Positions 12,728 through 15,043 of a stretch of 55,250 bases of DNA are shown here, one piece after another (positions within the stretch are counted from its first letter, which is position 1; each line of letters opens with the position of its first letter). Both the position numbers and the translations under genes were made by a program. A model generated the notes under the pieces. That model was given only the letters and a program-made list of their open reading frames with translations, was not told the origin of the DNA and made no database searches. Origin of the DNA: an uncultured Candidatus Saccharibacteria bacterium. Lineage in GTDB: Bacteria > Patescibacteriota > Minisyncoccia > Phycocordibacterales > UBA9973. The stretch covers positions 1-55,250 of the forward strand of contig CAYIBP010000005.1 of the NCBI GenBank assembly GCA_964361705.1, read 5' to 3'.

Positions 12728-15043
12728 TTATAACACATTTTTCACCTTTTCCAAAAGTATCCCAATCTCATCCCGTAATATCGCTGCGGTTTCGAAATCG
12801 AGTTCTTTTACCGCTTTGTTCATTTCTTTTTCTTTTATTTTTATTATTTTATCGTAGACCATTTTATTTCTTTCTTCATCAGAGAGCATTGTGTTTTTTA
12901 TCGAATCAGATTCGTTCTTCTTTTTATTGTCTTTGCTTTTTACAAAAGCTTTTTTGAAAAGCTCTATATCTAGAGTGAGCTCGGCATTCACCGCTTTGGC
13001 GTGTTCGCTTTCGAGCTCTTCGGTAATATCTTTTATATTTTTCATTATCGTCTTCGGAGTAATGCCATGCTTTTTATTGTAAGCAAGCTGGGTATTTCTG
13101 CGACGAGTAGTTTCATCTATGGCACTCTTCATCGAACCTGTAATCCTGTCGGCGTAAAGTATAACTCGGCCTTCGGCATTGCGTGCTGCACGACCGATGG
13201 TCTGTATCAGCGATGTTTCTGAACGCAAAAACCCTTCTTTGTCAGCATCTAAAATACCTATCAATGCGACTTCTGGTAAATCCAAGCCTTCACGCAAAAG
13301 GTTTACTCCGACTAAAACATCAAATTTCCCTTTACGGAATTCTGTCAGGATTTTTATCCTCTCTATTGTTTTTATATCGCTGTGCAAATATTCGGCTTTT
13401 ATTTTTTTATCTTTTAGATATACCGAAAGTTCCTCTGCCATCTTTTTTGTCAGCGTTGTCGCAAGTACACGAAAACCTCTTTTGATAGTGTGTTCTGTTT
13501 CTTTTATAAAATCTTGTATCTGACCTTTGTACTGAGGGCGCGGAGAAGTATGCTTGTAGGAGTCTTCGCTGCGAACAGAATTATCTTGCCCTTCCAAGAC
13601 AGAGTGCGAACGACGGAGAGCATACTTCTCCGCGCCCTCACTCACTGGTCTCACAAATATCTCTGGATCAACCAATCCTGTCGGGCGGATGATTTGTTCT
13701 ACTATCTGCCCGCTTTCTCCTTTTTCTTTCTCCGAAGGTGTGGCACTGGTATATATGACTTGCCCGATTCTTTCTTCAAATTCATCGTATTTCAAAGGCC
13801 TATTATCTTTAGCAGAAGGCAAACGAAAACCATATTCCACAAGTGTTTTTTTGCGAGAAGCATCTCCGGCATACATACCTTGGAGTTGTGGCAATGTGAC
13901 ATGCGATTCATCTATGATGGTCAAGAAATTGGGGAATTCGCGCGATAACTTTCTTTTGAGGGGTGTCTCGCAGGCCGACGGGCCGAGAGGCAGCGCTGGC
14001 GTAGCAACGCCAGACAGCGACCCCGCAAAAGAAGAGTTATCGCGCGAATTCCTTGGAAAATACGACAGCAGTGTCTCCGGTGGCTCGCCTTCCGCTTTTC
14101 CCGAAAGATGTCTGGAATAATTTTCTATACCACTGCAATAGCCGACTTCTTTTATCATTGCCAAGTCATAATTTGTACGTCGTTTTATTCTCTCTGCCTC
14201 CAAAAGCTTTCCCTCTTTCTCAAACTTTTTTAATTGTTTAGTAAGTTCTTTTTTTATTTCTACTAGTGCTTTATTTTTTTTATTTTCTTCCGTTATAAAA
14301 TGTTTCGCCGGAAAGACAAACACACTCTCTTCTTCTTTCAAAACCTTTGAAGACACGGGGTCAACTTTTTTTATAGATACGATCTTTCCATTTTCAATCT
14401 CAATCTGAAAAGAAAAAGTCTCAGACACGGGCATAAATTCTACTCTTCCACCTATGGATCTGAATTGTCCGGGATTCAAATCCGCATTTGTGCGTTCAAA
14501 ATGAATCTCAATAAATCTTTTCAAAAGACTCATCCTGTCTATCTTCATACCAACATTTAATTTTAAATTCACTTTTTCATATTCTTCCGGTGAACCCAAA
14601 CCATAAATACAAGACACTGAAGCGACGATAATAACATCCGGCCTTGTAAGCAAAGCTTGAGTGCTGGCGTGACGTAATCGGTCTATCTCTTTGTTTATCT
14701 GAGCATCTTTTTCTATATAGGTATCTGAGACTGGCATATACGCCTCGGGCTGATAGTAGTCATAATAAGAGACAAAATAATGTACAGCAGAATCTGGGAA
14801 AAATTGACGAAATTCAGAAGCGAGCTGGGCGGCAAGGGTTTTGTTGTGAGCTATCACCAAGGCAGGCTTGCCCCATTTAGCTATGACATTCGCCATGGTA
14901 AAGGTCTTGCCGGTACCTGTAGCGCCGAGCAATGTCTGCTTTTTCATACCTTTTTCCAGACCCTGCAAAAGCTTTGAAATAGCCTGCGGTTGATCGCCGG
15001 CAGGATCAAAATGACTCTTTAATTTGAAATTATTTTTTAACAC
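12728..15043 (-). CDS. uvrB: Excinuclease ABC subunit B with two palindrome-encoded peptide inserts
   Basis: PAGDQPQAI, GATGTGKTFT, YFVSYYDYYQPEAY, DESH, NLLREGLDLPEV, QTIGRAARN, C-terminal UVR domain. Confidence 0.98.
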   Translation of the reverse strand: MLKNNFKLKSHFDPAGDQPQAISKLLQGLEKGMKKQTLLGATGTGKTFTMANVIAKWGKPALVIAHNKTLAAQLASEFRQFFPDSAVHYFVSYYDYYQPEAYMPVSDTYIEKDAQINKEIDRLRHASTQALLTRPDVIIVASVSCIYGLGSPEEYEKVNLKLNVGMKIDRMSLLKRFIEIHFERTNADLNPGQFRSIGGRVEFMPVSETFSFQIEIENGKIVSIKKVDPVSSKVLKEEESVFVFPAKHFITEENKKNKALVEIKKELTKQLKKFEKEGKLLEAERIKRRTNYDLAMIKEVGYCSGIENYSRHLSGKAEGEPPETLLSYFPRNSRDNSSFAGSLSGVATPALPLGPSACETPLKRKLSREFPNFLTIIDESHVTLPQLQGMYAGDASRKKTLVEYGFRLPSAKDNRPLKYDEFEERIGQVIYTSATPSEKEKGESGQIVEQIIRPTGLVDPEIFVRPVSEGAEKYALRRSHSVLEGQDNSVRSEDSYKHTSPRPQYKGQIQDFIKETEHTIKRGFRVLATTLTKKMAEELSVYLKDKKIKAEYLHSDIKTIERIKILTEFRKGKFDVLVGVNLLREGLDLPEVALIGILDADKEGFLRSETSLIQTIGRAARNAEGRVILYADRITGSMKSAIDETTRRRNTQLAYNKKHGITPKTIMKNIKDITEELESEHAKAVNAELTLDIELFKKAFVKSKDNKKKNESDSIKNTMLSDEERNKMVYDKIIKIKEKEMNKAVKELDFETAAILRDEIGILLEKVKNVL
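13533..13640. repeat. Palindromic in-frame insert in uvrB (108 bp)
   Basis: Perfect 22-bp arms TGAGGGCGCGGAGAAGTATGCT (13533-13554) / AGCATACTTCTCCGCGCCCTCA (13619-13640). Confidence 0.93.
13933..14052. repeat. Palindromic in-frame insert in uvrB (120 bp)
   Basis: Perfect 18-bp arms GGAATTCGCGCGATAACT extending to ~31 bp with one bulge and one mismatch; inner GGCC/GGCC and CTGGCGT/ACGCCAG hairpins. Confidence 0.93.

What the first reader, a model, noticed from the sequence alone, without database searches (positions are those of the whole stretch)
13533..13640. 108-bp uvrB insert with perfect 22-bp arms
Seen: a perfect 22-bp inverted repeat spanning exactly 36 codons, with inner TTCGC/GCGAA and TCTTG/CAAGA pairings. 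It lies between RP and GQIQD, where UvrB usually has only a few residues. Inference: perfect arms point to recent insertion or selection on pairing.
Basis: partly seen in the sequence, partly recalled or inferred. Interest (0 to 1): 0.72.

Follow-up and report, generated by a model that had tools for sequence, protein, structure and literature searches.

The report
Translated hairpin element with co-evolving arms
The hairpin inside the DNA-repair gene uvrB is real and is one copy of a small repeat that sits in frame in repair and tRNA genes across one genus of ultra-small bacteria; it is likely a selfish, translated-through element like those of Rickettsia, but its arms differ from copy to copy while staying paired, most likely on the DNA strand opposite the message.

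Summary
Confirmed: a perfect 22-bp inverted repeat (13533-13554/13619-13640) lies in frame in an intact uvrB of a Nomurabacteria-like genome, and contigs of other studies carry both junctions. It is one copy of a family ('E1'): a 62-nt core conserved as DNA, inside a ~20-bp stem whose sequence is private to each copy. E1 occurs in 51 of 150 genus genomes and in none of 147 from other genera. Of 115 distinct copies, 108 lie in open frames, mostly uvrB, polA, cca, uvrA, recG, uvrC, tgt. This uvrB loop holds some insert in 58 of 110 genomes, from many unrelated repeats, and E1 is scattered on the tree. Perfect arms do not show recent insertion: arms diverge ~60% between copies yet stay paired, and one arm mirrors host silent codon changes. 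G·T wobbles favour the strand opposite the mRNA (70:21), against splicing or an mRNA role. Best reading: a Rickettsia-type coding palindrome, with arms likely kept matched by DNA-level conversion or by recognition of one strand. No mobilising gene was found.

The parts
13533..13554 (+). Left arm of the outer stem (22 nt), private to this copy
   Evidence: no other match in the genome
13555..13618 (+). Innermost stem pair T13555·G13618 (a wobble on the + strand, i.e. antisense to uvrB) around the 62-nt conserved core 13556-13617; on the mRNA the core reads roughly LRRSHSVLEGQDxSxRSEDS
13565..13610 (+). Inner helix TTCGC/GCGAA with flanking covarying pairs
   Evidence: helix 3: 98.7% of cells paired, one pair G-C in 35 and A-U in 26 sequences
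13584..13599 (+). Apical hairpin TCTTG-loop-CAAGA
   Evidence: (helix 4)
13619..13640 (+). Right arm of the outer stem (22 nt)
12728..15043 (-). Host gene uvrB, open through both inserts; this insert is residues ~469-505, a low-confidence loop between a strand and a helix in the model
13933..14052 (+). Second in-frame hairpin insert in uvrB (site A), different family 'E2' (core 13961-14023), same design of conserved core plus private stem

Best explanation
The insert is one in-frame copy of a genus-specific hairpin repeat (62-nt conserved core inside a ~20-bp stem private to each copy) that is likely a non-autonomous selfish element, is likely translated as a tolerated loop in UvrB, and likely has its arms kept matched by a process acting on one single DNA strand. 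SHOWN: the core repeats within and between genomes; copies keep the reading frame; the core is conserved as nucleotides, not as peptide; arms covary, and at uvrB site A one arm mirrors the host's silent codon states; wobble pairs favour the element's reverse strand; several unrelated repeats occupy the same two loops; occupancy is scattered on the uvrB tree. INFERRED: copies are gained, replaced and lost repeatedly, and they survive mainly in loops of essential repair and tRNA genes, where only in-frame insertions are tolerated and only in-frame deletions can remove them. INFERRED, mechanism: when the element's reverse strand is single-stranded (replication, repair or incoming transforming DNA) it folds; arm-to-arm copying (fold-back or template switch), probably helped by a protein that recognises the core, rebuilds the stem from whatever host sequence flanks it and leaves G·T but not A·C mismatches. 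UNTESTED: the mobiliser. Stand-alone Y1 (HUH) transposases and small GIY-YIG nucleases of these genomes are the candidates.
For: Family and range: pattern in 41 of 151 genus genomes, control 0; covariance model in 51 of 150 and 0 of 147 genomes of other genera in the class; 3 copies in this genome. Frame: 108 of 115 distinct copies lie in ORFs of 150 aa or more, 99 in one orientation and 9 reversed; in the first 85 copies all 73 same-orientation copies used one phase. Host genes: polA 30, uvrB 37, cca 15, uvrA 5, recG 5, uvrC 4, tgt 4, leuS 2, carA 2, recJ 1, other 3, intergenic 7 (names confirmed on one representative each). Nucleotide-level conservation: majority frequency 0.85/0.87/0.86 at codon positions 1/2/3 over 88 copies. 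Covariation; own-arm versus cross-copy pairing. Host mirroring: 46 of 56 silent positions in the PDFL codons are matched by the other arm, shuffled mean 33.3, p = 0.0002, 14 copies, kin not independent. Strand: mismatches counted once per site, position and type give 70 G·T on the reverse strand against 21 on the forward, and 51:15 in the distal pairs; the bias holds in all three codon phases. Of two silent transitions in the apical hairpin, the one that leaves a wobble on the reverse strand is in 39 of 115 copies and the one that would leave it on the mRNA in 0 of 115 (12 and 0 of the 21 copies found only by the model). Four-fold-site skews are small. Turnover: 16 E1 copies at this site need 16 changes on the uvrB tree, at least 9 forced by starred branches; cores within a genome differ by 9.45 nt (20 pairs) against 12.3 between genomes at the same site (376 pairs), 1 of 5000 permutations. 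Loop: pLDDT under 50 at residues 473-501 and 334-367. Precedent: intragenic REP/RPE repeats favour uvrABCD, polA and tRNA genes (PMC3733652, section 15).
Against: No mobilising gene flanks any of the 115 copies. The genome's 7 Y1 transposase and 2 small GIY-YIG genes have flanking repeats unlike E1 by eye, and 0 of 105 uvrB inserts match the flanks of the 23 small GIY-YIG loci that could be parsed of 31 examined. Copy number is only 1-5 per genome, low for an active element. Within-genome similarity is mixed: 7 of 20 pairs differ by 5 nt or less, the rest by 9-21. That wobble follows the element rather than the gene rests on few reversed copies: 5:1 for E1 (p = 0.22) and 12:5 for E2 (p = 0.14) with gaps allowed, 9:1 for E1 without gaps. 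The tree is FastTree only, with 42 of 119 branches open, and recombination within uvrB could also scatter the label. Some copies keep the core with a broken stem (for example L087, L107). Translation of the insert was not observed.
Confidence: 0.62

Rival explanations
1. The element is a domesticated cis-acting structure. A host protein recognises the folded antisense RNA or template-strand DNA and tunes repair and tRNA genes (or recombination at them), so the host selects for the pairing.
For: Strong nucleotide conservation and covariation; 82 of 115 copies are in DNA repair genes; 99 of 108 coding copies share one orientation; low copy number. In Neisseria a strand-specific ssDNA nuclease acts on such repeats and changes transformation rates (PMC11893778).
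Against: 48 of 110 genomes have an empty site B and 43 carry unrelated repeats there; close relatives differ in occupant; 99 of 150 genus genomes had no E1 match; E2 uses the same sites in both orientations, 19:17. The same gene classes are hit by unrelated repeats in other phyla, which fits tolerance.
Confidence: 0.15
2. Every copy is a young, independent insertion at a hot spot. The insertion reaction itself makes the ~20-bp stem by fold-back copying of target DNA, and the arms then simply decay.
For: Tight stem length (median 20 bp); one arm often overlaps host codons (PDFL, YPGQI, PALF); scattered occupancy; identical cores at two sites of one uvrB gene in G113; a contig of run X14 is 98% identical downstream yet lacks the insert (one contig, depth 3.7).
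Against: Random decay should give A·C and G·T mismatches equally, but distal pairs are 51:15. Fourteen of 15 site-A copies share the same register although their cores differ by ~21%. This copy's arms are mostly not traceable to the empty allele. No clean empty/filled pair of near-identical genomes was available.
Confidence: 0.15
3. The hairpin is removed from the message (a tiny intron) or skipped by the ribosome, so UvrB is made without it.
For: A long stem would bring the two flanks together; the hosts are essential genes.
Against: Frames stay open in 108 of 115 copies, and cores one base longer are compensated elsewhere in the insert (L062, L073). Wobbles are tolerated on the strand that is not the mRNA. 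Essential host codons lie inside the stem. No conserved boundary motif. No Rfam match at gathering score, and only generic miRNA-hairpin hits far below cut-off.
Confidence: 0.04
4. The peptide is what matters: the insert adds a functional module to the proteins.
For: One reading phase dominates and gives a recognisable 22-residue peptide.
Against: Third codon positions are as conserved as first and second; 9 copies are read from the other strand; arm-encoded residues are free; the model gives a disordered loop.
Confidence: 0.04

Closest known systems
Rickettsia palindromic elements (RPE), as summarised in PMC10969869 (passages), PMC3733652 (sections) and PMC3184786 (passages); the original Ogata papers were not seen
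   Same: About 105-150 bp palindromic repeats inserted in frame in unrelated housekeeping genes, giving a conserved peptide; several families per genome; no own transposase. R. conorii uvrB is interrupted at two sites by such repeats.
   Different: Here the outer stem is not part of a family consensus but private to each copy and partly made of host codons; pairing is kept (PMC6649704 says RPEs lose repeat identity over time); 94% of copies are coding; 1-5 copies per genome. No sequence comparison with RPEs was run.
CGTC-tagged REPs (PMC3733652) and Ssn-related motifs cut by small GIY-YIG ssDNA nucleases (PMC11893778)
   Same: 98 of 115 copies carry CGTC at the 5' edge of the core. Both ends of the core match a short repeat found in 6 of 201 class genomes (control 0), which flanks a lone GIY-YIG gene in L309. 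Ssn recognition is strand-specific and tolerates loop extensions.
   Different: E1 has no 8-9 bp stem with a 4-5 nt loop and no CCA tail; 0 of 115 copies match the published SRM pattern or either half; the short repeat itself does not match it and was not found in 151 genus genomes. Ssn acts on the CGTC strand, whereas E1 wobbles favour the other strand.
GTAG REPs/REPINs with RAYT (Y1 HUH) transposases
   Same: Small hairpins, no coding capacity of their own, strand-specific ssDNA substrates; the genome has 7 Y1 genes flanked by palindromes.
   Different: No conserved GTAG tag; E1 does not resemble those flanks; almost all copies are intragenic.
Coding palindromes of Nematomorpha mitochondria (PMC6649704, passages)
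   Same: Arms inside coding sequence stay matched; template switching or conversion is the proposed cause.
   Different: Those have no inserted conserved core and are perfect; E1 stems are ~20 bp, enclose a mobile-looking core and tolerate wobble on one strand.
Classical MITEs
   Same: Size, terminal inverted repeats, non-autonomous.
   Different: Terminal repeats are not conserved among copies, and no constant target duplication was seen.

Membership tests
RPE-like coding palindromes | Dispersed palindromic repeat of ~100-150 bp | tested here: met
RPE-like coding palindromes | Inserted in frame in unrelated conserved genes, absent from orthologs | tested here: met
   108 of 115 coding; 48 of 110 genomes empty at this site
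RPE-like coding palindromes | Insert is expressed as part of a working protein | not testable with these tools
   ORF intact and loop position only
RPE (the Rickettsia families themselves) | Sequence homology to RPE-1 to RPE-10 | not tested
   No RPE sequences were fetched; E1 was not found outside one genus
CGTC REP | CGTC (or TGTC) tag next to the stem | tested here: met
   CGTC in 98 of 115 copies
CGTC REP | 8-9 bp stem, 4-5 nt loop, unpaired CCA tail | tested here: not met
   6-bp bulged helix, 36-nt insert with a second hairpin, tail TCC (definition)
Ssn-related motif (SRM) | Match to the published degenerate SRM pattern | tested here: not met
   0 of 115, whole or halves (pattern)
Ssn-related motif (SRM) | Flanks a small GIY-YIG gene | tested here: not met
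   No E1 copy beside one; only the short look-alike in L309 is
RAYT-associated REP | Same repeat flanks a Y1 transposase gene | tested here: not met
   7 Y1 loci of this genome inspected; none of 115 copies beside one; Y1 loci of other genomes were not surveyed
MITE | Conserved terminal inverted repeats shared by copies | tested here: not met
   Distal arms differ by 29-62% among same-site copies
MITE | Target-site duplication | tested here: inconclusive
   None constant in 24 filled/empty or filled/filled pairs, but the pairs are only 72-90% identical
Known structured RNA family (Rfam) | Score at or above gathering threshold | tested here: not met

The most novel reading that the evidence does not exclude
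Nomurabacteria have an undescribed strand-specific hairpin-rewriting system: an enzyme recognises the 62-nt core as folded single-stranded DNA, builds or refreshes a ~20-bp stem by copying the neighbouring host sequence in reverse, and so re-inserts or homes the core into the same loops of repair genes, rewriting host codons in pairs. It may descend from the CGTC repeat/GIY-YIG ssDNA nuclease pair.
Probability: 0.25. Interest if true: 0.78.

Novelty: new variant of a known kind. Interest (0 to 1): 0.47.

Why it matters
How coding palindromes such as RPEs insert, and why they favour repair genes, has stayed open. This genus offers a large natural experiment: one loop of UvrB filled in over half of 110 genomes by many unrelated repeats, with empty alleles beside them. 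The private, host-derived, one-strand-folded stems give specific predictions about the substrate (which strand, which pairs, about 20 bp), so candidate nucleases and transposases can be tested directly on oligonucleotides. It also warns that perfect arms do not date an insertion, and that 30-40 residue loops in CPR core proteins are often repeat-derived and should be masked in trees and structure work. The kind of element is known, and this scan has noted the family before, which limits the surprise.

Tried and rejected
Assembly artefact: rejected. Known RNA family: none. Arm as a repeat family: no other copy in the genome. Viral source: 0 matches in viral contigs with one exact 22-mer pattern. 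Reverse transcriptase as mobiliser: no PF00078 match in this genome, completeness 100%. Autonomous master copy: none among copies from genomes or 30 new ones from metagenome contigs. Two non-CPR hits of the 22-mer (L082, L091) lack the rest of the core and the stem and were dropped. Pseudoknot between the apical loop and the purine-rich internal loop: 90% of cells paired but only 1 double-sided change and 19 of 62 broken at one pair, so not supported. Resemblance to HDV-like ribozymes, SRP RNA, attC sites and a tRNA anticodon arm was considered from memory only and not tested beyond Rfam. A hydrophilic-residue explanation for the A·C excess was tested by codon phase and by the two silent transitions, and does not account for it (the phase labels and codon table printed were off by one and are corrected; the stem counts had an offset error, corrected; the E2 inner-helix counts were mis-indexed and are not used). 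Homologues of the L309 GIY-YIG protein at 32-45% identity occur in 53 of 151 genus genomes, none in this genome at E <= 1e-8; co-occurrence with E1 was not tested formally. The IQ-TREE run did not finish, so FastTree was used. Expression: no RNA holder listed. PMC186582 (Ogata 2002) is not held. Literature searches listed no paper on such elements in Patescibacteria; the library lacks most subscription papers, and no supplements were read (the Ssn paper's supplementary lists could include CPR genomes).

Full report
Observation. The + strand has a perfect 22-bp inverted repeat at 13533-13554 and 13619-13640 with 64 nt between. It folds far better than shuffles (z = -7.6), and 30 shuffled windows gave at most 15 perfect pairs. 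The inner TTCGC/GCGAA and TCTTG/CAAGA pairings are there. It lies in uvrB (12728-15043, minus strand), which passes the NCBIfam cut-off. Against the solved UvrB 2fdc_A the query has two insertions, residues 332-371 and 468-505. The first is a second hairpin at 13933-14052. In an AlphaFold model both are low-confidence loops (pLDDT under 50 at 334-367 and 473-501), the second between a strand and a helix. Contigs from three studies match both junctions with no differences, though none listed bridges the whole element.

The core repeats, the arms do not. In the 746-kb genome the arm is unique, but the inner part recurs at C2:70056 and C2:36315, both intergenic. A 22-nt core pattern matched 41 of 151 genus genomes with no control hits. 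A covariance model matched 51 of 150, with 1-5 copies each, and none of 147 genomes from other genera of the class. These tallies include two unpublished genomes (G076, G139); no other claim rests on them. Named public records with the core are Nomurabacteria/Paceibacteria-type MAGs, some titled Saccharibacteria or unnamed bacteria; two non-CPR hits were chance; viral contigs gave none. Pooling genomes and metagenome contigs gave 115 distinct copies; near-duplicates from one species may remain.

Where copies sit. 108 of 115 lie in ORFs of 150 aa or more: polA 30, uvrB 37 (20 at site A, 17 at this site B), cca 15, uvrA 5, recG 5, uvrC 4, tgt 4, leuS 2, carA 2, recJ 1, and 3 others including ileS and rsmA; 7 are intergenic by this rule. 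Gene names were assigned by peptide motifs and confirmed on one representative each (cca and uvrC scored below their cut-offs, and one ORF had no match). 99 coding copies share this copy's orientation and 9 are reversed. The core is conserved equally at all codon positions (0.85, 0.87, 0.86; 88 copies), so the constraint is on nucleotides.

The site is a hot spot. Of 115 genus genomes with a uvrB match, 110 were counted; three unpublished genomes, one truncated contig and one held under another locus id were left out. Site B is empty in 48 (nearly always exactly 10 aa), holds E1 in 12, the second family E2 in 3 and other repeats in 43; 4 were not parsed. Site A is empty in 71 and filled in 35. 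On a FastTree tree of 122 UvrB proteins without their inserts (2 short rows left out; 6 rows were first picked by the E1 pattern), the 16 forward E1 copies at site B need 16 changes, at least 9 forced by well-supported branches, no fewer than shuffled labels. Neighbours at 87-90% uvrB identity differ in occupant. Cores in one genome are closer (9.45 differences, 20 pairs) than same-site cores of different genomes (12.3; 376 pairs; 1 of 5000 permutations), and two copies in one uvrB gene are identical. This points to repeated gain, replacement or conversion; the tree is weak and recombination could add to the scatter.

The arms covary. On 62 aligned copies 93.8% of cells pair against 82.1% in shuffles, with 216 double-sided changes against 58; slid controls fall to 41-54%. 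The stem has a median of 20 bp (85 copies). At site B the distal arms differ by about 60% and the cores by 21%, yet own-arm pairing is 0.82 and cross-copy pairing 0.38. At site A one arm is the host's own PDFL codons, and the other mirrors their silent states at 46 of 56 positions against 33.3 expected. So perfect arms reflect upkeep or repeated rebuilding, not age alone. For this copy the arms cannot be traced clearly to the empty allele.

One strand is favoured. Mismatches that read G·T on the element's reverse strand (the window's + strand, antisense to uvrB) outnumber those on the forward strand 70 to 21, and 51 to 15 in the distal pairs, counting each site, position and type once. The bias holds in each codon phase (36:6, 10:4, 35:9). 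In the apical hairpin, the silent change that keeps a wobble on the reverse strand occurs in 39 of 115 copies, the silent change that would keep one on the mRNA in 0 of 115; among the 21 copies found only by the model it is 12 and 0. My search pattern allowed the first change freely and the second only as a mismatch, so the model-only count is the fairer one. Base skews at four-fold sites are small. In reversed copies the bias leans with the element (5:1 for E1; 12:5 for E2, against 15:2 in forward E2 copies) but is not significant in either set with gaps allowed. This argues against splicing, ribosome skipping or an mRNA structure, and for a single-stranded DNA (or antisense RNA) structure.

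Mobiliser. None was found beside any copy. The genome has 7 Y1 transposase matches and 2 small GIY-YIG genes besides uvrC, and no RVT_1 match; their flanking palindromes do not resemble E1. Prompted by a recalled repeat, I searched for the two ends of the core with a short gap: 6 of 201 class genomes have such a short repeat, control 0, and in L309 it flanks a lone GIY-YIG gene on both sides. This is the layout of CGTC-tagged REPs (PMC3733652) and of the Ssn ssDNA nucleases, which bind one strand and cut just upstream of the hairpin (PMC11893778). E1 has CGTC in 98 of 115 copies but fails the published SRM pattern in all 115, the short form was not found in 151 genus genomes, and the favoured strand is the opposite one. 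Descent from such a repeat is a lead, not a result.

Comparison and verdict. The element works like an RPE: a palindromic repeat read through in frame in housekeeping genes. The taste for uvrABCD, polA and tRNA genes, and even two repeats in one uvrB, are reported for REPs and RPEs (PMC3733652 section 15). It differs in having private, partly host-derived stems that stay paired with a strand bias; matched coding arms are otherwise reported from Nematomorpha mitochondria, where template switching or conversion is proposed (PMC6649704). Papers seen: PMC10969869, PMC6649704 and PMC3184786 as passages; PMC3733652 parts 1-2 of 8, section 15 and passages; PMC11893778 parts 1-5 of 11 and passages; others as search listings only. 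Seven searches listed no description in Patescibacteria. Earlier notes of this scan describe the same family and E2 on other DNA; I had reached the reading before consulting them, and they are not independent support. Verdict: real, a new variant of a known kind, mechanism inferred; interest 0.47.

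Noticed in passing
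window 13933-14052; G000 C1:44919-45039 and C8:6386-6507: Family E2: a 63-nt GC-rich core with covarying inner hairpins inside private stems (median 23 bp); pattern in 46 of 151 genus genomes; 36 of 37 copies examined are coding, in both orientations (19:17), often at the same sites as E1. One arm carries a bulged base that is C in 25 of 35 gaps (an extrahelical G on the favoured strand).
   Followed up: partly
window 9214-9325: A third hairpin insert with a different core (29-bp arms, 93% complementary) in frame in uvrC; no other copy in the genome.
   Followed up: partly
window 849-977 and 22551-22736: Two intergenic long hairpins with unrelated cores and long outer stems.
   Followed up: no
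uvrB sites A and B across the genus (L002-L030, L146-L219): At least ten unrelated repeat types fill the same two loops in frame; of inserts folding below -20 kcal/mol, 38 fold better on the antisense strand and 12 on the sense strand. Remnants of E1 beside a newer repeat occur (G044, G081).
   Followed up: partly
L092 and L097: Reversed E1 copies in uvrB followed by a remnant of a forward copy, suggesting inversion or re-insertion into an older copy.
   Followed up: no
window 13533-13655, run X14 record 11: A contig with an empty site-B allele that is 98% identical to the window on one side (254 nt) and 86% on the other (92 nt); one contig at depth 3.7; could mark recombination at the site.
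   Followed up: no
window 14021, loose end in runs X5 and X8: A contig matching 30 nt of the E2 core continues with 14 nt identical to the finding's arm; that junction is not in this genome. Unexplained.
   Followed up: partly
G000 C13:4788, C13:20112, C1:80459, C1:122207, C6:885, C14:1046, C8:13308, C8:275, C8:24758: Seven Y1 transposase matches and two small GIY-YIG genes in a 746-kb genome, most flanked by their own palindromes; the C8:275 gene sits between repeats that resemble the start of the neighbouring tRNA-like sequence.
   Followed up: partly
G000 C1:98015-98121, C4:37374-37418, C1:97145-97268, C13:14919-15050: Further hairpins: two in frame in ORFs that look like tRNA-related enzymes (names recalled, not scanned) and two intergenic ones sharing a core with the G013 site-B insert.
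   Followed up: no
window 25249-25298; G000 C9:30363-30420, C4:9032-9080: Terminator-like hairpins with unusually long perfect stems (19-27 bp), which may point to a genome-wide tendency to perfect hairpins; not compared with other lineages.
   Followed up: no
L309 (G179:C46): A lone GIY-YIG gene flanked on both sides by a short CGTC-type repeat that does not match the published SRM pattern: a candidate Ssn-like pair in CPR bacteria.
   Followed up: partly
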